A stretch of DNA of 37,708 bases from a virus: the IMG/VR virus record IMGVR_UViG_3300026255_000014, positions 1 through 37,708 of that record. The stretch is one strand, 5' to 3'. Positions 1-37,708 of the stretch are shown here, piece by piece; positions within the stretch are counted from its first letter, which is position 1; each line of letters starts with the position of its first letter. Made by a program: the position numbers and the translations under genes. Under the pieces are notes generated by a model that had not been told where the DNA came from, made no database searches, and saw nothing but the letters and a program-made list of their open reading frames with translations.

Positions 1-312
1 CCGTTTTGTGGGAGGACACCGAATCCAGACTGGACTGATGAGAGCTACATAGAGTGTACAAATCGTAAATGTTCTCTTTATGGTTATGGAATGAGTACAG
101 GCGACTGGAACACCCGCCCAATTGAGGATGACCTTCGCAAGCGCATTGCCGAGTTGGAGGCGCTTGTTAATGTGTCGGAAGGTCTTTACGAGCGTATCTA
201 TGAGCAAGCAGCCCGCATTGCCGAGCTGGAGGCGGAGATTGTCCAACTTACCGCTCACGATGCTACAGAGCGGCAAGATGATAAGTGGATACCGGAGGTG
301 CAGGATGTGTAA
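1..312 (+). CDS. Lar-like zinc-ribbon protein, 5' truncated by window edge; duplicate copy of 37306..37638
   Basis: ORF track 91..312 translation is identical to the C-terminal part of 37306..37638; the frame is open back to position 1. Confidence 0.5.
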   Translation, partial: PFCGRTPNPDWTDESYIECTNRKCSLYGYGMSTGDWNTRPIEDDLRKRIAELEALVNVSEGLYERIYEQAARIAELEAEIVQLTAHDATERQDDKWIPEVQDV

Positions 313-382
313 CTTTTTCAGTTTTGTAACAGACCCAGTGAATCACCCAGCGGAGTATTACTACTTCGACTGGGAATATCGC
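1..382. repeat. Terminal redundancy, left copy; identical to 37327..37708
   Basis: Direct comparison of the first and last 382 nt of the window shows identity; implies a unit genome of about 37,326 bp. Confidence 0.9.
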
Positions 383-4236: not shown

Positions 4237-4584
4237 ATGGCTTATGCGCCAGCAAGACAATGTGTTGTGCCAGGATGTCCGAATCTTGTGACAGAGCCTG
4301 GTGTTAGCCGTTGTCCAGAACATCAAAAACAATACAAAAAAGAGTTGACAAGACCGCGTGATGTCAAATACACGAGTCAACGATGGCGCAAGACCTCGAA
4401 GGTGTTTTTGAGTCGCAATCCAATTTGTGAACGTTGTGGTGAGCCGAGTGAGATCGCACACCACATTATTCGTAAGCGTGATGACGGGGCAGACGACTTC
4501 GACAATCTGGAAGCACTTTGCCGAAAGTGTCATGAAGCCGAACATCATGCAAGCGGTGAAAGGTGGGGTAGGCGTGCGAGGTAG
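4237..4584 (+). CDS. HNH homing-type endonuclease
   Basis: CxxC...CxxC plus HH..RKRDDG...N...LC..CH arrangement typical of the HNH fold; canonical position just upstream of the terminase small subunit. Confidence 0.8.
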   Translation: MAYAPARQCVVPGCPNLVTEPGVSRCPEHQKQYKKELTRPRDVKYTSQRWRKTSKVFLSRNPICERCGEPSEIAHHIIRKRDDGADDFDNLEALCRKCHEAEHHASGERWGRRAR

Positions 4585-5071
4585 AACGCCATTGCCAGAT
4601 GCTTTGAAAGAAGCACAGGGAACGCTGAAGAAGAGCCGAGTAAATGACTCTCAGGCTCGTTTTGACGTACCTAAAGACTCACCGAAACCGCCGACAACGC
4701 TCAATCTCTATGGCAAGCGGTTGTGGAAAGAAATGCTGCCAAAGTTGGTTGAAACAGGTCTTTATACCGAAGGTGATCACCAGGCGTTTGAATTGCTTTG
4801 CATGGCTTATGGTGATCTGATTCAGGCACGCAAAGACCTTAAAGAGTCGGGTACGATTGTTATCACAGACAAGGGCACGGTTTATCAGCACCCTAACGTT
4901 GGGATCGCAAACCAGGCTTGGAATCGGGTGAAACTGATGTTGGGGCAGTTTGGGCTGACACCAGCAGAGCGGACACGAGTAAAAGCACGCTCACCCGAAG
5001 AGAAAAGGGGCAGTTTGGCAGAATCGTTGTTTGCTGCTGCACGTGAAAAGGTTGAGGGTGAGACTGAGTGA
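4574..5071 (+). CDS. terS: Terminase small subunit (P27-family-like)
   Basis: Motif GQFGLTPAERTRVKA and N-terminal RGRTPLP resemble P27-family TerS. Start uncertain: GTG 4574 follows an AGGTGGGG SD; ATG 4547 and 4532 are in-frame alternatives. Confidence 0.7.
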   Translation: MRGRTPLPDALKEAQGTLKKSRVNDSQARFDVPKDSPKPPTTLNLYGKRLWKEMLPKLVETGLYTEGDHQAFELLCMAYGDLIQARKDLKESGTIVITDKGTVYQHPNVGIANQAWNRVKLMLGQFGLTPAERTRVKARSPEEKRGSLAESLFAAAREKVEGETE

Positions 5072-6375
5072 GTGCAAATCTGTATTTAGGTGACTGTCTG
5101 GAAGTCTTATCAACGCTTGAAGCGGATAGCATTGACACCTGCATCACTGACCCGCCTTACGAGTTAGGTTTCATGGGTAAGAAGTGGGATTCAAGCGGCA
5201 TTGCGTTCCAGCCTGAAACTTGGCAAGCCGTATTCAGGGTGCTGAAACCAGGTGCAATTCTGCTTGCCTTCGGCGGCACTCGCACCTATCACCGCATTGC
5301 TTGCGCTATTGAGGACGCTGGCTTTGAAATCCGTGACACTATCGCTTGGGTATACGGGAGCGGATTCCCTAAAAGTTACGACATAAGTAAGGGAATTGAC
5401 AAACAAGCTGGAGCTGAAAGGGAAATAGTAGGCTACAAGGAAACATCAACTTATCCAGATAGCGATGGTGTTGCTCATTACAAAAACAGGCAACAAAGCA
5501 ATGGTTCTCAAGTCAATACAGGAGGTATGCCAGAAATCACCGCGCCCTCCACCCCCGAAGCGCAACTCTGGGATGGCTGGGGCACGGCGTTGAAGCCTGC
5601 CTTTGAGCCGATAGTTGTTGCGATGAAGCCGATTGACGGCACGTTTGTCAACAACGCGCTCACTTGGGGCGTGGCTGGCTTGTGGATTGACGGGGGTAGG
5701 GTGGGGACGTCAAAAAACGTTCCTGCATCACCAAGCGATAAAGGCACTCTGCAATGTAAAGGTTTGGGCGGTGGATGGGATAGAAGCGGAATGAATCCGA
5801 ACATTGGTCGCTTCCCTGCCAACTTGATTCACGACGGCTCGGATGAGGTGGTGAGTGGGTTTCCGAATACTACGAGCGGCAAGGTTGCGGCTGGAACTAT
5901 GCGAGGCTTGAAAAGCAATCACAATGTGGCATACGCAGACATCGCCGCCGGAACTGAATTGACTGGCTACGGCGACTCTGGCTCAGCCGCGCGCTTTTTC
6001 TACTGTGCGAAAGCCAGCCGAAGCGAGCGCAACGCTGGGCTGGAGGGGATGGAAGAAAAGGTCGGCGGTGGAATGAAGGGCACGGAAGACCAAACGCTTT
6101 TGACTGGCTCTGGAAACATCCGCAACAATAAAATGCAAAACCACCATCCCACCGTCAAGCCAATCGAACTGATGCGCTACCTTGTTCGGCTTACCAAAAC
6201 GCCAACAGGCGGGGTGGTACTTGACCCGTTCATGGGGTCTGGCACGACTGGCATTGCTTGCGTGTTGGAAGGACGCGAGTTTATCGGAATTGAGCGGGAA
6301 GCGGAGTATGTCGAGATTGCAGAAAAGCGGATTGCGCATTACAGGTTGCCGATATTGGAAGAAGTGATCGAGTGA
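5068..6375 (+). CDS. DNA methyltransferase (N6-adenine/N4-cytosine, beta-class order)
   Basis: N-terminal DPPY (ITDPPYELGF) and C-terminal AdoMet motif LDPFMGSGTTGIA. Confidence 0.85.
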   Translation: MSANLYLGDCLEVLSTLEADSIDTCITDPPYELGFMGKKWDSSGIAFQPETWQAVFRVLKPGAILLAFGGTRTYHRIACAIEDAGFEIRDTIAWVYGSGFPKSYDISKGIDKQAGAEREIVGYKETSTYPDSDGVAHYKNRQQSNGSQVNTGGMPEITAPSTPEAQLWDGWGTALKPAFEPIVVAMKPIDGTFVNNALTWGVAGLWIDGGRVGTSKNVPASPSDKGTLQCKGLGGGWDRSGMNPNIGRFPANLIHDGSDEVVSGFPNTTSGKVAAGTMRGLKSNHNVAYADIAAGTELTGYGDSGSAARFFYCAKASRSERNAGLEGMEEKVGGGMKGTEDQTLLTGSGNIRNNKMQNHHPTVKPIELMRYLVRLTKTPTGGVVLDPFMGSGTTGIACVLEGREFIGIEREAEYVEIAEKRIAHYRLPILEEVIE

Positions 6376-8966
6376 AAAAGTACGATCCCTGGAATTGCGA
6401 CCTTGATAAGTACGAATTTGACCCTGTGGCTGGGCAGGTTGCAGTCGACTTTATTGAAAATTATATTACCCATGTCAAAGGGGAGTTAGGCGGCAAGCCT
6501 TTTTTGCTTTTGGAGTGGGAAAAGGATTTTGTAAGAAACCTTTTCGGTTGGAAAGAAAAGGAAACAGGTTATCGGCGTTACCGTGAGGCGTTTGTATTTG
6601 TGGCACGGAAAAATGGCAAAGCATTAGAAGTCAATACTCCGATTCTGACTACTACAGGTTGGAAGAAACACGGCGATTTAGTCCCTGGAGACTTTGTTTT
6701 TTCTCCTGATGGCGTACCCGCAAAGGTTATCTATTCTACTCCTCATTATGAGGGGAATTGTTATTTTGTGGATTTCTCAGGCGATGAAGCAATTATCGCT
6801 CACGAAAATCACGAATGGAAAACTAACCGCACCTGGTATACAGGAAAGCCCAAATGGATAGAAGGTGAAAAGCCTTTGGTTACCACTAAGCGGATTGCGG
6901 AAACTCTACGATGTGGGAAACGCCAAGACCTTGTGCATTCTGTGGATGTTGCGAAACCGATACAGTTTGAGCCAAAAGAATACACAATACCCCCGTATGT
7001 TTTAGGCGTTTGGCTTGGCGATGGCGACTCTGACAGTTGCAGGATCACGATTGCAGAACCTGAAATTGTCCAGAAGCTATCTGATTATGGTTATCCAGCC
7101 GAATATAGATCAAGATACCGACACCTTGTTGGACGGGGGAAGTTTCAAAAGCAACTGCGTGAAAAGGGCTTACTGGGCAATAAGCATATACCACAAGAAT
7201 ACTTGCTTGGTTCAGTTGAGCAAAGGATCGACCTCTTGCGCGGATTGATGGACACAGACGGTTATGTGTCTTCGGCTGGACAATGCGGAATTGCATTAAC
7301 CGACGGTAATTTGTTTCGCCAAGTTGTCGAATTAATTACAGGCTTGGGATTAAAGCCTCGCGTAATGATTGATCGTGCTCAGTTAAATGGGGTTGACTGC
7401 GGAGTTAGATATAGAGTCCACTTCTATGCCTATCAAGACACGCCAATAGCATATATTGAGCGAAAAGCCAAACGGCAAAAAGAAACTCCAAAAACAAGGC
7501 GGCGCAGCCAGACTCGGATGATTTCAAATGTTACGCCCGCAGGTAAGCAAACAGTCAACTGCATCACAGTCGAAGGCGGGATGTATCTCGCAGGAAAGCA
7601 ACTTATCCCAACTCACAACTCACCTCTTGGGGCTGCCATCGCGCTTTATCTGTTGATTGTAGACAATGAGCCTGGTGCAGAGTTGATCTCTGTAGCAGCA
7701 GACCGAGACCAGGCACGGGCGATTTTTGACACGGCTCGTTTTATGGTAAAGCAAAACGCCGCCCTGGACGAATTGGTTAGTGCATATCGAAATGCGATTG
7801 TCGCTAAGCAAGGGGCTTCAGTTTACAAAGTTGTTTCATCGGATGCTGGCACTAAGCATGGTGGAAACTTACATGCTGCGCTTTTTGACGAGTTGCACGC
7901 TCAGAAGAACCGAGACCTTTACGATGTTGTGCAAACCAGTTTTGGCGCGCGCCGTCAACCACTGCTGATTTCTTTTAGTACGGCAGGGTTTGATCGTGAG
8001 TCGATCTGCTATGAAGTTTACTCAATGGCAAAGCAGATTTCTGAGGGCATAATCCAGCGAGATTGGTTTTACCCCGTAATATACGAGGCATCGCCAGAAG
8101 ACGATTGGACAAGCGAAGATACGTGGAAGAAAGCCAATCCGAGTTTGGGACACTCGATCAAGATTGATTACCTGCAGAAGAATTATGAAAAGGCTCTATC
8201 AAGCCCGCAGTTCCAAAACACTTTCAAGCGTTTGTATCTCAATATGTGGACATCGGCAGAAACACGCTGGCTTGATATGCAAAACTGGGACAAATGCGGT
8301 GAGCAACCGATTGACATGGGACTGCTTGAAGGGGCTGAATGTTACGGCGGTCTTGACCTTGCGACAGTTTCTGACATTGCTGCTTTTGTACTGGATTTCC
8401 CGAATGAAAGCGGTGAAGAGGAATTGCACACCTGGCTTCCGACCTTGTTCTGTCCAGAGTCAAAGTTGACCGACCCAGGTTTCATTGACCGCGACATTTA
8501 CAGGGCTTGGGCTGACCAGGGCTATTTGATTGCAACGCCTGGAAACGTGATTGACTACGAGTACATCATTGCTGAAATTGAGCGATTAGGTGAACTTTAC
8601 AACATTAAAGAGATCGCATTTGACCGTTGGGGTGCTGCACAGATTTCACAAACGCTTACCAATATGGGCTTTACTTTGGTTGGTTTTGGTCAAGGGTACG
8701 TGAGCATGTCACCACCCACAAAAGAAGTTGAGCGGTTGATATTACAAGGCAGGGTGAGACATGGAAACCACCCTGTAATGCGTTGGATGGCGGATAACGT
8801 TATGGTTACGACTGACCCTGCAGGGAATATCAAGCCAGACAAGAAGAAAAGCAGGCAGAAGATTGACGGCGTGGTTGCGGCAATCATGGCAACCGATAGG
8901 GCAATTAGAAATTCTGTAGGTCGCAAGGACTCTGTTTACGAAAAAAGAGGGTTGGTTGTTCTATGA
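6372..8966 (+). CDS. terL: Terminase large subunit, interrupted by an in-frame intein
   Basis: 864 aa; removing residues 84..416 yields the P-loop ARKNGKS and a Walker B-like LLIVDNE with a C-terminal nuclease-like domain. GTG start overlaps the upstream stop. Confidence 0.9.
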   Translation: MKKYDPWNCDLDKYEFDPVAGQVAVDFIENYITHVKGELGGKPFLLLEWEKDFVRNLFGWKEKETGYRRYREAFVFVARKNGKALEVNTPILTTTGWKKHGDLVPGDFVFSPDGVPAKVIYSTPHYEGNCYFVDFSGDEAIIAHENHEWKTNRTWYTGKPKWIEGEKPLVTTKRIAETLRCGKRQDLVHSVDVAKPIQFEPKEYTIPPYVLGVWLGDGDSDSCRITIAEPEIVQKLSDYGYPAEYRSRYRHLVGRGKFQKQLREKGLLGNKHIPQEYLLGSVEQRIDLLRGLMDTDGYVSSAGQCGIALTDGNLFRQVVELITGLGLKPRVMIDRAQLNGVDCGVRYRVHFYAYQDTPIAYIERKAKRQKETPKTRRRSQTRMISNVTPAGKQTVNCITVEGGMYLAGKQLIPTHNSPLGAAIALYLLIVDNEPGAELISVAADRDQARAIFDTARFMVKQNAALDELVSAYRNAIVAKQGASVYKVVSSDAGTKHGGNLHAALFDELHAQKNRDLYDVVQTSFGARRQPLLISFSTAGFDRESICYEVYSMAKQISEGIIQRDWFYPVIYEASPEDDWTSEDTWKKANPSLGHSIKIDYLQKNYEKALSSPQFQNTFKRLYLNMWTSAETRWLDMQNWDKCGEQPIDMGLLEGAECYGGLDLATVSDIAAFVLDFPNESGEEELHTWLPTLFCPESKLTDPGFIDRDIYRAWADQGYLIATPGNVIDYEYIIAEIERLGELYNIKEIAFDRWGAAQISQTLTNMGFTLVGFGQGYVSMSPPTKEVERLILQGRVRHGNHPVMRWMADNVMVTTDPAGNIKPDKKKSRQKIDGVVAAIMATDRAIRNSVGRKDSVYEKRGLVVL
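6621..7619 (+). mobile_element. Intein (333 aa) with LAGLIDADG homing endonuclease domain inside the TerL Walker A motif
   Basis: Begins ALEVNTPILT, contains LGVWLGDGDS and LLRGLMDTDGYV, ends ...LIPTHN followed by Ser; splicing restores ARKNGK|SPLG. Confidence 0.8.
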
Positions 8967-9172
8967 GTTTATTTGGATGGTTTGCAGAATTGAGACCAGT
9001 TATTGTCAACACAAAGTTTGGCAAGGATTTCAGGGGCGTTGTTTGGAAGAAAACAAACGACTGCATCGTTCTGAAAAACGCAGAGTGGTTGTCGCCTGAT
9101 GGGGCGAAAAAACTGGATGGTGAAACAATCATCTTCATCAAAGAAATCGAATTTATACAGGCGGTCTCATGA
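8963..9172 (+). CDS. Hypothetical protein
   Basis: ORF track; ATGA overlaps with both TerL and portal. Confidence 0.5.
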   Translation: MSLFGWFAELRPVIVNTKFGKDFRGVVWKKTNDCIVLKNAEWLSPDGAKKLDGETIIFIKEIEFIQAVS

Positions 9173-24057: not shown

Positions 24058-25470
24058 ATGACTTATCCGTTCGGCATTGACATTTCGGCTTACCAATACT
24101 CACAAGACGGCTCACGAAAGCCCGACTTCGACCTAATCAACGAAAAGTGTGACTTCGTTGCCGTGCGTGCTGGCATCAGTTGGGGGTACACCGACAAGTG
24201 GTTTGAGTATTCGTGGTCACACGTTCTCAGACCGAGGCTGGGGTATCACGTGGTTTACCCTGGCGAGAGTGCGACTGCACAAATGAAACACTTTCTCAAC
24301 ATCGTGCATCCAACTCAGAATGACCGCCTTGTGCTTGATATGGAACTCGACCACGGCTATAGCAAGGCTCGAATCACAAAAACGCTTGTGGACTGTATGA
24401 ACATTATACAGACAGAGACGGGGCGTTATCCTGTGATTTACAGCAGGGCTTATTGGATTAACCAGTTTGTAGACGTGAACGCTTTGCCAGAAAAGACCGA
24501 CTGGTGGTTAGCAAACTACCTGCGTTCTAATCCCGACCCGTATTTCACGCCAGAGATGACACCGCCGCCTATGTTGCCAAACGGTGTGAAGAATTGGCTC
24601 ATCCATCAAACGTCAAAAGAACAGGACGGCAGTAAGGTGGGCGTGGTTAGTCACTATGTGGACACTAATCGTTGGAACGGTACACACGATGAGTTGCTGG
24701 CTTACTTCGGTTACGATGAGCAACCAGAGCCTGAACCTGAACCTGAACCGGAAGAGCCTTTGTTCCAAGCACGCGTTTACAGCTGGGCGACTCCCTACGT
24801 CAACGTGAGAGCCGAACCTTCATTAAGCGCAGGGAAAGTCGGCTTCAAATACCCGTTAGCGGTGACCGATGTTATGAGCACGATGCCTGACTGGTACGAA
24901 GTGCCCGAAGGCTGGATGATGTCTCGATTCTTAGAACGGCTTGACTATGACCCGCCCGCCACGATGCTTGCAATCAAGCCGCTCTCACAAAGAGACACGC
25001 GCTGGGCTTCTCACAAACTCGGTTATTCCTATTACACGATAGGCGGTTACGGATGCCTTATCACAGCTATCAGTATGATACTGAACTGGTACGGCAAGCA
25101 GACCGACCCGGCGCAACTCAATGACGCTTTGGTTAGGGTGGGCGGTTTCACGGGTGCAAACCTTTATTGGAACGCAATCGCGCAAGTTCAGCCTGACATT
25201 TACCTTGCAAAGGCTATCGACTGCTACTATATTCCAGCACCCTTGCACGAAATAGACGCTCTGCTTGCGGATGACGTTCCCGTCTTGGTGCACGTTGACT
25301 TCACGCCGGGTGGCGCGGTAGATCAGCATTGGGTGCTGATTGTCGGCAAGTCGGGCGATGATTACATCATCAATGACCCGTGGACTGGGGAGCAAGGTAG
25401 TTTCCGCACTCGTTATGGCGATCCTGCCCGCTGGATATTCCGCATCAGGGCGTATCGGAGGCAAGCATGA
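24058..25470 (+). CDS. Modular endolysin: GH25 muramidase, (EP)n linker, C-terminal C39-like cysteine peptidase
   Basis: N-terminal FGIDISAYQ typical of GH25; linker EPEPEPEPEPEEP; C-terminal GYGCLITAISM and DQHWVLIVG suggest a papain-like Cys/His pair. Confidence 0.8.
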   Translation: MTYPFGIDISAYQYSQDGSRKPDFDLINEKCDFVAVRAGISWGYTDKWFEYSWSHVLRPRLGYHVVYPGESATAQMKHFLNIVHPTQNDRLVLDMELDHGYSKARITKTLVDCMNIIQTETGRYPVIYSRAYWINQFVDVNALPEKTDWWLANYLRSNPDPYFTPEMTPPPMLPNGVKNWLIHQTSKEQDGSKVGVVSHYVDTNRWNGTHDELLAYFGYDEQPEPEPEPEPEEPLFQARVYSWATPYVNVRAEPSLSAGKVGFKYPLAVTDVMSTMPDWYEVPEGWMMSRFLERLDYDPPATMLAIKPLSQRDTRWASHKLGYSYYTIGGYGCLITAISMILNWYGKQTDPAQLNDALVRVGGFTGANLYWNAIAQVQPDIYLAKAIDCYYIPAPLHEIDALLADDVPVLVHVDFTPGGAVDQHWVLIVGKSGDDYIINDPWTGEQGSFRTRYGDPARWIFRIRAYRRQA

Positions 25471-28426: not shown

Positions 28427-28698
28427 CATTACAAAATCCATTGAAAGACCCTTCCGCAGTGCTGGATTATGTGTTCGACTGGACGGAATGGCTGGCAACC
28501 GGCGAAACAATCACCGACCATACTATCACAGCCGACACGGGTATCACCGTTGACAGTTCGACTGAATCAGACGGCAAAGTTACCGTCTGGCTCTCAGGCG
28601 GTACGGCTGGTATCAATTACAAAGTGGCGTGCCTGATTACAACGTCCGCAGGGCGAACCGACGAGCGCACAATCTGGATCAAGGTGGTCGAAAGGTGA
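28417..28698 (+). CDS. Small conserved-looking phage protein (possible fiber-associated)
   Basis: Pattern DYVFDWTEWL...VTVWLSGGTAG.NYKV recalled as a recurrent phage family; function unknown. Confidence 0.35.
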   Translation: MSLTLQNPLKDPSAVLDYVFDWTEWLATGETITDHTITADTGITVDSSTESDGKVTVWLSGGTAGINYKVACLITTSAGRTDERTIWIKVVER

Positions 28699-30185
28699 GC
28701 AATTTGTTTCCAGACATAACGGGCGTGCTATATGAAGAAGAACAGTCAAAATTACATGAGATAGCCAAAACAACTACGCATCCAATTGTCAACATTGGCG
28801 TATATCAAGGATTGTCTACCGCACAACTTGCAAGTGGCACAAAGCAGAGCGTGTACGCCATTGACATTTGGGATGAGCGACCAGCAGGGTATGTCCCAAG
28901 TAAAAGGGACTTGATGAGGGGATACCACCTGAAGAAAACTCAGGACGTTTTCCTTGAAAACATGGAAAAGCACGGCTTGACAAACGTTATCCCGATAAAG
29001 GGTAACAGCAAGGTGGTTGGCAAAACCTGGGACACCCCGATAGGCGTGTTGTTTATCGACGGTGATCACCATTACAAATCCGCGCTTTCGGATTACAGCT
29101 TGTTTGCAAAACACATTGTAGTCGGCGGATGGTTAGCAATTCACGATTATCACATAAAAGACGTTAGAAGGGTGATAGACGAGATCATCATTCCTTCGGG
29201 ACTGTGGACGGACATTGAACTGACAGAGACCTTATGGGTTTGCAAGAGAAAGTCGTGCACGACAGCAGACGCAAAACCGCCTATGACATACTGGATACGC
29301 CATCATCAGCACAAAGGGAAGCCAATTGAAGACGCTTTAATTAGTCAAGGATGGCAGTGTAGTGACGCGCCAGATATTGCCTTGTTCGACACCGCGAGGA
29401 ACAAACCTATAGAACGCAGGTTTAGAAGAGGGGGCGCAACGCTTGTAGTCTATCCGCATACGGCAATTGCTGGCTGGTGGTACGACGGGATATTAGAACC
29501 GCCTAACGGCTTTAGTGCAATACTGGCTATCGGGGAAGGACAGAAGGAAGTCCAGAATATCATCACGCCGAACATCAGGGTTGAAACAATTGGTTGGAGT
29601 TATTGTCCAATCTTGCCATTTCAAAAGCCAAAGGCGATCAAGCAAATACTGTTTGCCCCCATCCATCCAAGCCTCAATGGCAAGTTGAGATCAGAGGCAA
29701 AAGACGTGAACGTCAGGGTGTATAAGCGTTTGCTGGAAATGAAAGGCGTGCAGATAAACCTTCGTGTTATTGGCGATCTTGAAAAGAATGGATTATGGCA
29801 CTCGCCAGATGTTACAACCACAGAAGCCCAACCAGACGGAAGTTATGCAGAAATTGATTCTGCAGATTTGGTGATAGGCGAGGGCATGTTTCTATCGCTT
29901 GCAGTAGCCAGAGGGAAGCCAGCTATCGGAATGAATCAGCGCGTAACACAGAAAGTAAACTGGAGTGGGCGCGTTCCAAAACGGTGGAACGAATATAACC
30001 ACTTACAAGCATATCCGATTGACTTTGATGACGCTGATCTGCCGGAGTTGATTGACAAGGCGGTAGACGAATCACAGGTAAGCAACTGGAAGAAACGCTT
30101 TATCGGTGAGCAGTTGCAACCTGAGCATTTATCAAACGTGCTAAAGGACATCAGGAATGAGCATGCCAAACAGAGAGAACAATAA
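28695..30185 (+). CDS. Fusion protein: class I SAM-dependent methyltransferase-like N-terminus, glycosyltransferase-like C-terminal domain
   Basis: NIGVYQGLST...FIDGDHHY...GGWLAIHDY resembles Methyltransf_24-type O-methyltransferases; C-terminal ADLVIGEGMFLSLAVARGKPAIG resembles GT-B C-terminal domains. GTG start overlaps upstream stop. Confidence 0.5.
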   Translation: MSNLFPDITGVLYEEEQSKLHEIAKTTTHPIVNIGVYQGLSTAQLASGTKQSVYAIDIWDERPAGYVPSKRDLMRGYHLKKTQDVFLENMEKHGLTNVIPIKGNSKVVGKTWDTPIGVLFIDGDHHYKSALSDYSLFAKHIVVGGWLAIHDYHIKDVRRVIDEIIIPSGLWTDIELTETLWVCKRKSCTTADAKPPMTYWIRHHQHKGKPIEDALISQGWQCSDAPDIALFDTARNKPIERRFRRGGATLVVYPHTAIAGWWYDGILEPPNGFSAILAIGEGQKEVQNIITPNIRVETIGWSYCPILPFQKPKAIKQILFAPIHPSLNGKLRSEAKDVNVRVYKRLLEMKGVQINLRVIGDLEKNGLWHSPDVTTTEAQPDGSYAEIDSADLVIGEGMFLSLAVARGKPAIGMNQRVTQKVNWSGRVPKRWNEYNHLQAYPIDFDDADLPELIDKAVDESQVSNWKKRFIGEQLQPEHLSNVLKDIRNEHAKQREQ

Positions 30186-34017: not shown

Positions 34018-34980
34018 ATGAATAATGAACTAATAACGCTTGATGAGAGAAGCCGTTTATACCAGCTTGAAGAAACTATCAGGCAAGGGCTGAATACCTT
34101 CGTGGATGTTGGGAACGCCCTGCTTGAGATACGGGACAAACGGCTTTACAGGCAAGAGCACAGCACGTTCGAAGAATACTGCAATAAGCAGTGGAACTTT
34201 ACAAAACAGCGTGTCTACCAACTTATGGATTCTGCCTCTGTAATCGACACTCTAAAAAAGTCAACCGTGGTTGACTTTTTACCAACCTCTGAACGCCAAG
34301 CCCGCCCGCTTGCGTCACTTGAGCCAGAAGAACAGGTTGAAGCATGGAAGCGCGTTATTACATCAACGCCGGAGGGCAATGTTACAGCCAAGATTGTTTT
34401 GAAGGCTGTAAAGGAAGTTGAGCGCGAGAAGCGCATTGAGCGAAGGCAAGAGCGCATAGAAAGTACTCCTGTAATTCCAAACGGGAAATACAACGTCATT
34501 TATGCTGACCCTCCCTGGCAATACGCATTTGGGTTTGATATTCATGGGGCAGCCGATAGACACTACTCCACTATGTCAATTGATGAACTTTGTGAATTGC
34601 CGATAAGAGACTTGACCGAAGACAACGCAGTCTTATTTATGTGGACGACATCACCAAAGTTATTTGATTCTTATGCTGTAATAAAGGCATGGGGATTTGA
34701 GTATAAAACTTCCTTCGTCTGGGACAAAGTGAAACATGTCATGGGGCACTATAACAGTGTCAGGCATGAGTTCCTTCTACTTTGCACAAAGGGAAGTTTT
34801 CCAAAACAGTCTAATACTTTACACGACAGCGTTATTGAAATCGAGCGATCGGACGAACACAGCGAAAAACCTGAATATTTTCGGCAACTAATTGAGACGA
34901 TGTATCCGCTATCGAAAAAAATAGAGTTATTCGCACGTAAAACTGTCGATGGCTGGGATGGCTGGGGGAATGAAATATGA
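34018..34980 (+). CDS. MT-A70-family N6-adenine DNA methyltransferase with N-terminal putative DNA-binding domain
   Basis: VIYADPPWQY, FMWTT, KAWGF, VWDK, EHSEKP, ELFARK...GWDGWGNE are MT-A70 signatures. Confidence 0.85.
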   Translation: MNNELITLDERSRLYQLEETIRQGLNTFVDVGNALLEIRDKRLYRQEHSTFEEYCNKQWNFTKQRVYQLMDSASVIDTLKKSTVVDFLPTSERQARPLASLEPEEQVEAWKRVITSTPEGNVTAKIVLKAVKEVEREKRIERRQERIESTPVIPNGKYNVIYADPPWQYAFGFDIHGAADRHYSTMSIDELCELPIRDLTEDNAVLFMWTTSPKLFDSYAVIKAWGFEYKTSFVWDKVKHVMGHYNSVRHEFLLLCTKGSFPKQSNTLHDSVIEIERSDEHSEKPEYFRQLIETMYPLSKKIELFARKTVDGWDGWGNEI

Positions 34981-37309: not shown

Positions 37310-37638
37310 ACACGCTTAAACCCTGTCCGTTTTGTGGGAGGACACCGAATCCAGACTGGACTGATGAGAGCTACATAGAGTGTACAAATCGTAAATGTTC
37401 TCTTTATGGTTATGGAATGAGTACAGGCGACTGGAACACCCGCCCAATTGAGGATGACCTTCGCAAGCGCATTGCCGAGTTGGAGGCGCTTGTTAATGTG
37501 TCGGAAGGTCTTTACGAGCGTATCTATGAGCAAGCAGCCCGCATTGCCGAGCTGGAGGCGGAGATTGTCCAACTTACCGCTCACGATGCTACAGAGCGGC
37601 AAGATGATAAGTGGATACCGGAGGTGCAGGATGTGTAA
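37306..37638 (+). CDS. Lar-family-like zinc-ribbon protein (putative restriction alleviation), paralog A
   Basis: Same N-terminal zinc ribbon and coiled coil as 1066..1395; complete copy of the gene truncated at 1..312. Confidence 0.6.
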   Translation: MNTLKPCPFCGRTPNPDWTDESYIECTNRKCSLYGYGMSTGDWNTRPIEDDLRKRIAELEALVNVSEGLYERIYEQAARIAELEAEIVQLTAHDATERQDDKWIPEVQDV

Positions 37639-37708
37639 CTTTTTCAGTTTTGTAACAGACCCAGTGAATCACCCAGCGGAGTATTACTACTTCGACTGGG
37701 AATATCGC
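37327..37708. repeat. Terminal redundancy, right copy; identical to 1..382
   Basis: Direct sequence identity. Confidence 0.9.
37631..37708 (+). CDS. 5' end of the tandem-repeat protein gene (duplicate of 305..382), truncated by window end
   Basis: Identical to 305..382. Confidence 0.45.
   Translation, partial: MCNFFSFVTDPVNHPAEYYYFDWEYR

What the first reader, a model, noticed from the sequence alone, without database searches (positions are those of the whole stretch)
6621..7619. Intein with WCT-type signature and LAGLIDADG endonuclease splitting the TerL P-loop
TerL is 864 aa. A 333-aa insert sits exactly between ARKNGK and S of the Walker A motif. It starts with Ala rather than Cys/Ser, has Trp in a block-B-like HENHEW, Cys in a block-F-like VNCITV, and ends THN before Ser, which is the pattern of class 3 inteins. 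It carries two LAGLIDADG motifs. Packaging ATPase activity would therefore depend on protein splicing.
Basis: partly seen in the sequence, partly recalled or inferred. Interest (0 to 1): 0.75.

Follow-up and report, generated by a model that had tools for sequence, protein, structure and literature searches.

The report
Class 3 intein in phage terminase

Summary
ORF 6372-8966 (+) encodes an 864-aa HK97-type large terminase (TerL). Nucleotides 6621-7619 encode a 333-aa insert between Lys83 and Ser417 of the Walker A motif RKNGK|S. Close intein-free homologues are exactly 531 aa and read RK(N/Q)GK-SPLGAAI without a break.

The insert's ends match solved class 3 DnaB mini-inteins (6BS8, 6RIX; E 1e-13). 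These matches align Ala1, His64, Trp66, Cys314 and Thr331-His332-Asn333, followed by Ser+1. The AlphaFold model (pLDDT 96.5) superposes on PI-SceI (TM 0.77), with the splicing lobe matching 6BS8. Both LAGLIDADG motifs keep their catalytic Asp residues.

In 110 TerL homologues with an insert at this site, the Trp-Cys-Thr triplet, His and Asn are invariant, and residue 1 is never a nucleophile. Intein DNA is about 99.4% identical to two related contigs, while the flanking extein DNA has diverged about 10% (dS 0.013 versus 0.53). This points to recent homing.

The architecture is already known. Tori et al. 2010 noted class 3 inteins in phage TerL P-loops, and Kelley et al. 2016 described the site as TerL1-a. 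Cluster E mycobacteriophage TerL carries a 36%-identical intein at the identical site. The verdict is a correct call on a new member of a known kind, of low-to-moderate interest.

The parts
6372..8966 (+). TerL precursor gene (864 aa plus stop). It has a GTG start that overlaps the stop of the upstream methyltransferase gene (GTGA).
   Evidence: Homologues start at the same MKKYDPWNCDL.
6372..6620 (+). N-extein (aa 1-83), ending in the Walker A residues ARKNGK. Lys83 is at 6618-6620.
   Evidence: aligned to ARKNGKT of HK97 TerL 6Z6D.
6621..7619 (+). The intein, 333 aa, running from Ala1 to Asn333.
6621..6659 (+). Splicing block A (ALEVNTPILTTTG). Residue 1 is Ala, not a nucleophile.
   Evidence: One search aligns it to ALALDTPLPTPSG of 6BS8. 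At position 1, 110 relatives have A in 79, Q in 28, R in 1, M in 1, and one alignment gap.
6759..6761 (+). Cys47, equivalent to Cys48 of the M. smegmatis DnaBi1 intein. There, Cys48 is essential for splicing and is the disulfide partner of the catalytic Cys.
   Evidence: Alignment. Cys is present in 78 of 110 relatives. The role in DnaBi1 comes from PMC6195587.
6783..6824 (+). Splicing block B (DEAIIAHENHEWKT). His64 is B:10 (6810-6812) and Trp66 is B:12 (6816-6818).
   Evidence: His and Trp are invariant in 110 of 110 relatives.
6993..7031 (+). Endonuclease block C, the first LAGLIDADG helix (PYVLGVWLGDGDS). The catalytic Asp134 is at 7020-7022.
   Evidence: PI-SceI match; helix 125-134.
7173..7205 (+). 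Endonuclease block D (LGNKHIPQEYL), with the invariant Lys188.
   Evidence: Lys in 110 of 110.
7224..7268 (+). Endonuclease block E, the second LAGLIDADG helix (RIDLLRGLMDTDGYV). The catalytic Asp213 is at 7257-7259.
   Evidence: helix 199-211; Asp in 110 of 110.
7545..7595 (+). Splicing block F (KQTVNCITVEGGMYLAG). Cys314 is F:4 (7560-7562), the predicted initiating nucleophile.
   Evidence: One search aligns it to VRCVEV of 6BS8. Cys is invariant in 110 of 110.
7599..7622 (+). Splicing block G (QLIPTHN|S). It contains Thr331 (G:5), His332, Asn333, and Ser+1, which is TerL Ser417.
7620..8966 (+). C-extein (aa 417-864): the rest of the ATPase domain plus the nuclease domain.

Best explanation
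Nucleotides 6621-7619 encode a full-length, bifunctional class 3 intein: a HINT splicing domain with a nested LAGLIDADG homing endonuclease. It sits in the Walker A P-loop of an HK97-type phage large terminase, between the invariant Lys83 and Ser417.

The proposed mechanism follows the established class 3 pathway (Tori et al. 2010, PMC2807308; PMC5222942; PMC7664689) and is inferred here, not shown.
1. The 864-aa precursor folds, with the intein keeping the two halves of the P-loop apart.
2. Cys314 (block F:4), activated by His64, Trp66 and Thr331, attacks the Lys83-Ala84 peptide bond. This forms a thioester-linked block F branched intermediate.
3. The N-extein is passed to the Ser417 hydroxyl, forming the block G branched ester intermediate.
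4. Asn333 cyclises and releases the 333-aa intein.
5. An O-to-N acyl shift leaves a 531-aa TerL with an intact RKNGKS Walker A.

Only this spliced product is expected to bind ATP and package DNA. At the DNA level, the free intein's endonuclease cuts intein-free TerL alleles in co-infecting relatives, and the intein is copied in by repair (homing).
For: - Anatomy: there is a clean 333-codon gap relative to 531-aa homologues.
- Sequence: phmmer against PDB gives class 3 DnaB inteins 6BS8, 6RIX and 6RIY as the top hits (E 1.4e-13 to 1.4e-11). They align A1, H64, W66, C314 and T331-H332-N333 to the corresponding class 3 catalytic residues.
- Fold: the AF2 model has pLDDT 96.5 and pTM 0.93. Foldseek matches PI-SceI at E 1e-19 and TMq 0.76-0.77, and the class 3 Msm DnaB intein at TMt 0.80.
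- Family conservation: 110 of the window TerL plus its 120 best database matches carry an insert at this site. H, W, C, T, H and N are invariant, position 1 is never Cys, Ser or Thr, and +1 is Ser in 91 and Thr in 19.
- Endonuclease: Pfam Hom_end scores 25.7 bits against a 21.1 cutoff. Asp134, Lys188 and Asp213 are present.
- Selection: against a 75%-identical intein (L006), pN is 0.17 and pS is 0.82, including in the endonuclease part.
- Mobility: against L005, the intein has 5 mismatches in 999 nt (dS 0.013), while the C-extein dS is 0.53. Against L008, the intein has 7 mismatches in 999 nt and the C-extein 124 in 1281.
- Host protein: the joined exteins align to HK97 TerL 6Z6D at E 3e-67, with ARKNGKS over ARKNGKT.
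- Precedent: the cluster E mycobacteriophage JeTaime/Cjw1 TerL reads RKNGK|ALDVETP...HHLW...VCIQI...PTHN|T, the same site and signature at 36% identity. Other TerL inteins have been shown to splice and to cleave DNA (PMC5050341).
Against: - No biochemical step was tested. Splicing, the block F intermediate and DNA cleavage are all inferred from homology.
- Pfam and NCBIfam profile libraries report no HINT or intein-splicing family for the insert, only the endonuclease families. LAGLIDADG_3 falls just below its cutoff (21.1 versus 22.5 bits).
- The low-divergence tract around the intein extends about 250 nt upstream and about 370 nt downstream. Other low-divergence patches occur later in the gene, so ordinary mosaic recombination could account for part of the pattern.
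- Active-site geometry in the model could not be measured, because no coordinates were available.
Confidence: 0.88

Rival explanations
1. The insert is a decayed or non-splicing intein remnant, an intein pseudogene like the Arthrobacter Arth_1007 case, or a domesticated insertion domain. On this reading the TerL is either non-functional or works with the insert in place.
For: Splicing was not tested. Profile libraries do not recognise a HINT domain. Degenerate class-3-like inteins do exist (PMC3196547, listed).
Against: Every residue required in class 3 inteins is present and invariant across 110 relatives. Purifying selection acts over the whole insert (pN 0.17 against pS 0.82). The insert separates Lys and Ser of the Walker A in an essential gene of what appears to be a complete phage genome. 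The model is confidently folded as HINT plus LAGLIDADG.
Confidence: 0.05
2. The insert is an intein that splices by the class 2 (KlbA-like) route. In that route Ser+1 attacks the N-terminal junction directly, and the block F Cys is not the initiating nucleophile.
For: Ala1 is shared by class 2 and class 3 inteins, and the mechanism was not measured here.
Against: Class 2 inteins lack the Trp-Cys-Thr triplet (PMC2807308). Here the triplet is present and invariant. The nearest solved relatives are experimentally characterised class 3 inteins (6BS8, 6RIX).
Confidence: 0.04
3. The splicing domain is active but the endonuclease is no longer functional. The intein would then persist only by vertical descent and general recombination, not by homing.
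For: Many inteins carry dead endonucleases. A clade of 27-28 related TerL inteins has Asn or Lys in place of the block C Asp. Mosaic low-divergence patches elsewhere in TerL show that general recombination operates.
Against: In this intein Asp134, Lys188 and Asp213 are intact. The endonuclease part has pN/pS of about 0.24 against L006. In two independent relatives the intein DNA is 99.3-99.5% identical while the C-extein DNA has diverged about 10%.
Confidence: 0.25

Closest known systems
TerL inteins of cluster E mycobacteriophages (Cjw1, JeTaime and others); the P-loop site called TerL1-a in Kelley et al. 2016 (PMC5050341)
   Same: The host protein family is the same (Terminase_1/HK97-type TerL). 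The insertion point is identical (RKNGK | intein | S/T). Both have Ala1, HxW, a block F Cys and a THN terminus, with a nested LAGLIDADG endonuclease. The sizes are almost equal: 333 aa here and 331 aa in JeTaime, calculated from the match coordinates.
   Different: Intein identity is only 36%. Residue +1 is Thr in the mycobacteriophage and Ser here. The host phage is unrelated: actinobacteriophage there, versus an uncultured phage whose nearest genome bins are Anaerolineaceae. I confirmed the site by direct alignment. I did not confirm from the paper's tables that cluster E is the group it labels TerL1-a.
Mycobacteriophage Bethlehem DnaB intein, the prototype class 3 intein (Tori et al. 2010, PMC2807308)
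   Same: Both have a non-nucleophilic residue 1, His at B:10 and Trp at B:12 (His65/Trp67 there, His64/Trp66 here), a block F:4 Cys, Thr-His-Asn at the C-terminus, and +1 Ser or Thr. The size is about 340 aa. The insertion is in a P-loop ATPase of a phage.
   Different: The host protein is different (DnaB-like helicase versus TerL). I made no direct sequence comparison here. The correspondence rests on the residue numbering given in the paper.
M. smegmatis and M. chimaera DnaB-1 class 3 mini-inteins (PDB 6BS8, 6RIX, 6RIY)
   Same: These are the best sequence matches among solved structures for both splicing-domain halves (E 1e-13). The splicing lobe superposes at TMt about 0.80. The equivalent of Cys48 is conserved.
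   Different: They are mini-inteins of 139-146 aa with no endonuclease. They are bacterial chromosomal genes. The block F loop is two residues longer.
PI-SceI (yeast VMA1 intein; 1VDE, 1LWS)
   Same: The overall two-domain architecture is the same, HINT plus LAGLIDADG endonuclease. It is the best whole-model fold match (E 1e-19, TMq 0.77). It is also inserted in an ATPase.
   Different: PI-SceI is a class 1 intein (Cys1, Cys+1, no Trp-Cys-Thr triplet). Sequence identity is 15-16%. PI-SceI is about 120 aa larger.

Membership tests
Intein (HINT-domain protein-splicing element) | An in-frame insertion in a conserved host protein, exactly absent from intein-free orthologues | tested here: met
   The 531-aa homologues show a single 333-column gap between GK and SPLGAAI. 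The extein DNA is colinear with the intein-free gene, 1596 nt each.
Intein (HINT-domain protein-splicing element) | A HINT fold with splicing blocks A, B, F and G | tested here: met
   phmmer matches to intein structures cover both halves of the splicing domain. Foldseek matches PI-SceI, TliVMA and DnaB inteins. Caveat: the Pfam and NCBIfam HINT profiles gave no hit.
Intein (HINT-domain protein-splicing element) | A C-terminal Asn followed by a nucleophilic +1 residue (Ser, Thr or Cys) | tested here: met
   Asn333 is followed by Ser417. Asn is invariant, and +1 is Ser in 91 and Thr in 19 relatives.
Intein (HINT-domain protein-splicing element) | Demonstrated protein splicing, with ligated exteins and a free intein | not testable with these tools
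   This needs expression with SDS-PAGE or mass spectrometry.
Class 3 intein (Tori et al. 2010) | A non-nucleophilic residue at intein position 1 | tested here: met
   Ala84 of TerL is intein residue 1. Relatives have A, Q, R or M at this position and never C, S or T.
Class 3 intein (Tori et al. 2010) | The Trp-Cys-Thr triplet: Trp at B:12, Cys at F:4, Thr at G:5 | tested here: met
   Trp66, Cys314 and Thr331 align to the triplet of 6BS8 and 6RIX. Each is invariant in 110 of 110 relatives.
Class 3 intein (Tori et al. 2010) | A block B His (B:10) two residues before the Trp | tested here: met
   His64 in HEW is invariant in 110 of 110.
Class 3 intein (Tori et al. 2010) | An obligate block F Cys nucleophile and a block F branched thioester intermediate | not testable with these tools
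   This needs C314A/S mutants and trapping of the intermediate.
LAGLIDADG homing endonuclease (intein-borne, two-motif type) | Two LAGLIDADG helices, each ending in a catalytic acidic residue | tested here: met
   LGVWLGD134GD and LLRGLMDTD213G lie on helices 125-134 and 199-211. In relatives Asp213 is invariant and Asp134 is present in 81 of 110.
LAGLIDADG homing endonuclease (intein-borne, two-motif type) | A profile match to the family | tested here: met
   PF05204 Hom_end scores E 1.3e-5 and 25.7 bits against a cutoff of 21.1. PF14528 scores 21.1 bits, just under its 22.5 cutoff.
LAGLIDADG homing endonuclease (intein-borne, two-motif type) | Site-specific cleavage of the intein-free allele | not testable with these tools
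   There is only indirect support: intein DNA is 99.3-99.5% identical between phages whose exteins differ by about 10%.
TerL, Terminase_1/HK97 type | An N-terminal ATPase with Walker A G-K-S/T, plus a C-terminal RNase-H-like nuclease | tested here: met
   PF03354 and PF20441 both match. The spliced sequence matches HK97 TerL 6Z6D at E 3e-67, with ARKNGKS aligned to ARKNGKT.

The most novel reading that the evidence does not exclude
The intein acts as a redox switch on DNA packaging. Cys47 is the counterpart of Cys48 in the M. smegmatis DnaBi1 class 3 intein. In that intein Cys48 forms a reversible disulfide with the catalytic block F Cys under oxidative stress and blocks splicing (PMC6195587). 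Cys47 is retained here and in 78 of 110 TerL P-loop inteins. The nearest genome bins point to strictly anaerobic Anaerolineaceae as hosts. Oxygen exposure could therefore trap TerL as an inactive precursor and postpone packaging until reducing conditions return. That would make the intein a conditional regulator rather than a purely selfish element.
Probability: 0.15. Interest if true: 0.55.

Novelty: new member of a known kind. Interest (0 to 1): 0.25.

Why it matters
The result shows that a tool-less reading of raw sequence can correctly call an intein class, its boundaries and its host motif.

Biologically it adds one more class 3 LAGLIDADG intein at the well-known TerL P-loop hotspot. This one is in an uncultured phage from anaerobic digester or fermentation-type metagenomes, whose nearest genome bins are Anaerolineaceae.

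Two points have modest value.
- The near-identical intein DNA inside diverged terminase genes is a clean natural footprint of recent homing in an uncultured phage population.
- The family of more than 100 TerL P-loop class 3 inteins, with an invariant His/Trp/Cys/Thr/His/Asn set, is a ready source of Cys1-free inteins for protein engineering. It is also a way to test whether the Cys48-type redox trap is general.

None of this changes the current understanding of inteins or terminases.

Tried and rejected
- Megablast of the TerL gene against deposited phages and complete E. coli genomes found no match. The phage has no close cultured relative.
- Pfam and NCBIfam did not detect a HINT or intein-splicing family in the insert, only endonuclease families and weak matches to the intein-containing Tes and RNR models. 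The splicing domain had to be established by PDB sequence search and fold comparison instead.
- tRNA and Rfam scans of the whole window found nothing.
- I first guessed a Bacillota host from the GH25 endolysin and the DnaB_2 and ERF genes. The genome-contig scan instead placed the closest TerL genes in Anaerolineaceae/Anaerolineales MAG bins. Either attribution is weak.
- I considered whether the upstream methyltransferase also carries an intein, because its Pfam match spans 399 residues for a 221-position profile. I did not pursue this. The layout (DPPY first, FxGxG last) is what beta-class N4/N6 methyltransferases show with a central target-recognition region, but that was not tested.
- I could not measure Cys314-to-junction or Cys47-to-Cys314 distances, because model coordinates are not exposed to the scripting tool.
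- dS against L006 is saturated (pS about 0.8), so no omega value is given for that pair, only pN and pS.
Full report
**Observation.**
The ORF at 6372-8966 (+) is 864 aa. Pfam assigns its C-terminal 450 residues to TerL_ATPase (PF03354, residues 420-554) and TerL_nuclease (PF20441, residues 562-845). Inside residues 273-350 it finds intein-type homing endonuclease families: Hom_end at 25.7 bits against a 21.1 cutoff when the insert is scanned alone, and LAGLIDADG_3 just below its cutoff. Coordinates 6621-7619 are exactly codons 84-416. These 333 residues begin ALEVNTP after ARKNGK and end IPTHN before SPLGAAI.

**The insert is a discrete element.**
A search of the protein collection returned 1906 TerL relatives. 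The closest intein-free ones (P0003 to P0008, P0010 to P0013 and P0015, at 71-90% identity over the exteins) are 531-541 aa. In the alignment they show one clean gap of 333 columns, with RK(N/Q)GK directly followed by SPLGAAI. The nearest such gene (L001 to L004) is 1596 nt, the same length as the window's two extein parts joined, and aligns to them without gaps at 80-83% nucleotide identity. The joined exteins (531 aa) match the solved HK97 large terminase 6Z6D at E 3e-67, with ARKNGKS over ARKNGKT. The insertion therefore sits between the Lys and the Ser/Thr of the Walker A P-loop.

**The insert is a class 3 intein.**
- phmmer against all PDB chains gives three class 3 DnaB mini-inteins as the top hits (6BS8 from M. 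smegmatis, 6RIX and 6RIY from M. chimaera; E 1.4e-13 to 1.4e-11).
- The N-terminal 70 residues and the C-terminal 26 residues match separately. These matches align Ala1, His64-Glu-Trp66 (HQW in the references), Cys314 (VRCVEV in the references) and Pro-Thr331-His-Asn333.
- These are the positions that define class 3 (B:10, B:12, F:4, G:5-7) in Tori et al. 2010 (PMC2807308) and in the structural work on MchDnaB1 (PMC7664689).
- An AlphaFold2 model built on 64 homologues has mean pLDDT 96.5 and pTM 0.93.
- Foldseek against the PDB returns PI-SceI at E 1e-19 and TMq 0.76-0.77 for the whole model. Other endonuclease-bearing inteins follow (TliVMA, PhoVMA, PI-PfuI), then the class 3 DnaB inteins for the splicing lobe (TMt about 0.80).
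- The window TerL was aligned with its 120 best database matches, and 110 of these 121 sequences carry an insert at this same site. In all 110, His, Trp, Cys, Thr, His and Asn are invariant. Position 1 is Ala (79), Gln (28), Arg (1), Met (1) or an alignment gap (1), and never a nucleophile. Residue +1 is Ser (91) or Thr (19).

**The endonuclease.**
Two LAGLIDADG helices are present, PYVLGVWLGD134GDS and RIDLLRGLMDTD213GYV. They lie on model helices 125-134 and 199-211. The block D Lys188 and Asp213 are invariant. Asp134 is present in 81 of 110 relatives; the exceptions are mostly one clade described below.

Against a 75%-identical intein (L006) the whole element shows pN 0.17 against pS 0.82, and the endonuclease part shows pN 0.19 against pS 0.80. 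It is therefore under purifying selection, although dS is saturated for this pair.

Two close relatives that carry the same intein give a more telling result.
- Against L005, a JGI metagenome contig, the intein has 5 mismatches in 999 nt (dS 0.013). The N-extein dS is 0.14 and the C-extein dS is 0.53.
- Against L008, a contig binned with an Anaerolineaceae MAG, the intein has 7 mismatches in 999 nt and the C-extein has 124 in 1281.

A tract of near-identity centred on the intein and fading into the flanks is what homing with co-conversion produces. Because other low-divergence patches occur further downstream, general mosaic recombination cannot be excluded as a contributor.

**Mechanism (inferred from the class 3 literature, not shown here).**
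1. Cys314 attacks the Lys83-Ala84 peptide bond to give a block F thioester branch.
2. The N-extein is transferred to the Ser417 hydroxyl.
3. Asn333 cyclises and releases the intein.
4. An O-to-N shift gives a 531-aa TerL with RKNGKS restored.

The Walker A Lys and Ser are 333 residues apart in the precursor, so ATP binding and therefore packaging should require splicing. P-loop inteins are reported to disrupt ATPase function in RadA, as cited in PMC6195587.

**Comparison with what is known.**
- Tori et al. [quoted passage not shown]
- Kelley et al. 2016 described the TerL1-a site as lying between the invariant Lys and the nucleophilic Thr of the P-loop. They also showed that several TerL inteins splice and that two cleave intein-free alleles.
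- A 2025 survey counts 287 class 3 inteins among actinobacteriophage inteins. Those with canonical LAGLIDADG endonucleases lie almost entirely in TerL and Cas4.
- tblastn of the insert against 50,697 phage records finds 792 records with related inteins. The best are cluster E mycobacteriophages (Cjw1, JeTaime), with a full-length match at 36% identity.
- Translating the JeTaime TerL shows RKNGK|ALDVETPILT...HHLW...VCIQI...PTHN|TELLAG, which is the same site, signature and endonuclease.
- More distant relatives include the Catera gp206-type and SETP3-type helicase inteins, both classic class 3 examples.

The finding is therefore a new member of a known kind.

**Context.**
The window is a phage genome. 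It encodes TerS (4427-5071), an N6/N4 DNA methyltransferase (5068-6375), TerL, a portal protein, an S78 protease, the major capsid protein, tail genes, a GH25/C39-like endolysin, two more methyltransferases, an ERF recombinase and a DnaB_2-domain protein. Its first 382 bases repeat exactly at its end, so it is probably a complete circular assembly. There is no close DNA relative among cultured phages or in E. coli. The closest TerL genes in species-representative genomes lie in Anaerolineaceae/Anaerolineales MAG bins, which is a weak host hint.

**Most novel reading not excluded.**
Cys47 aligns with Cys48 of Msm DnaBi1. In that intein Cys48 is essential for splicing and forms a reversible disulfide with the catalytic Cys under oxidative stress (PMC6195587). 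The authors called that Cys non-conserved, yet it is present in 78 of 110 TerL P-loop inteins. In a phage of anaerobes, this could make packaging redox-gated. I rate this at about 15% probability. The conservation may simply reflect the structural or catalytic need seen in the C48 mutants.

**Verdict.**
The novelty is low: a new member of a known kind. Interest is 0.25.

Noticed in passing
window 5068-6375 (+): A 435-aa N6/N4 DNA methyltransferase gene (PF01555, E 3e-35) sits exactly between TerS and TerL, with GTGA stop/start overlaps at both ends. Relatives L001 to L004 and L006 have TerS abutting TerL directly. So does L005, whose TerL is 98% and whose TerS is 97.5% identical. L008 appears to share the methyltransferase, because it aligns without gaps to 6219-6371. 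This looks like a recently gained, polymorphic cassette in the packaging operon. Its Pfam match spans 399 residues for a 221-position profile, so it has a large central insert, presumably a target-recognition region; this was not tested.
   Followed up: partly
window 1-382 and 37327-37708: The first 382 bases are 100% identical to the last 382. The window is probably a circular assembly of a complete phage genome of about 37.3 kb, or it carries a terminal repeat.
   Followed up: partly
window 1-255 versus 1087-1341; 637-948: There is a 255-nt direct repeat at 100% identity with 1086-nt spacing, and further 71-nt and 38-nt repeat copies near 1300-1391 and 1799-1869. A run of 12-nt tandem periodicity (18 registers) lies at 637-948 inside ORF 122-1069. 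This could be a repeat-rich gene family, an origin-like region or an assembly duplication.
   Followed up: no
window 6369-7988 versus L005 and L008: A tract of near-identical DNA is centred on the intein (5-7 mismatches in 999 nt). It is flanked by extein DNA that rises to 10-20% divergence. Further alternating low- and high-divergence patches occur at 8349-8528, 8769-8888 and 9009-9128. This shows mosaic recombination among co-circulating phages.
   Followed up: yes
proteins P0060-P0095 (TerL homologues of 857-869 aa, for example from Acidaminococcus intestini): A clade of 27-28 TerL P-loop inteins starts with Gln1. It has Ala in place of Cys47, Gly at block B:7, and Asn or Lys in place of the block C catalytic Asp. 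This is a class 3 variant with a probably inactive or nicking endonuclease.
   Followed up: partly
window 6759-6761 (intein Cys47): This Cys aligns with Cys48 of the M. smegmatis DnaBi1 intein, the redox-trap partner of the catalytic Cys. The original paper described it as non-conserved. Here it is present in 78 of 110 TerL P-loop inteins.
   Followed up: partly
L006 11724-12563 and 583-930; L002 1415-1822: Related phage contigs carry free-standing homing-endonuclease-type genes. L006 has a GIY-YIG/NUMOD3 gene between tail genes. L006 and L002 have HNH genes just upstream of TerS. The window itself was not checked for an HNH gene.
   Followed up: no
window 28629-30185, 34018-34980 and 5068-6375: The genome of about 37 kb carries three separate methyltransferase genes: Methyltransf_24, MT-A70 and N6_N4_Mtase. 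This suggests heavy investment in anti-restriction DNA modification.
   Followed up: no
window 24058-25470 (+): The endolysin candidate combines a GH25 muramidase domain with a C-terminal peptidase_C39-like domain.
   Followed up: no
L008, L009, L010 (genome contigs): The closest TerL genes in species-representative genomes (98%, 81% and 55% identity) all lie on contigs binned into Anaerolineaceae or Anaerolineales MAGs. This hints at a Chloroflexota host, although binning of short phage contigs is weak evidence.
   Followed up: no
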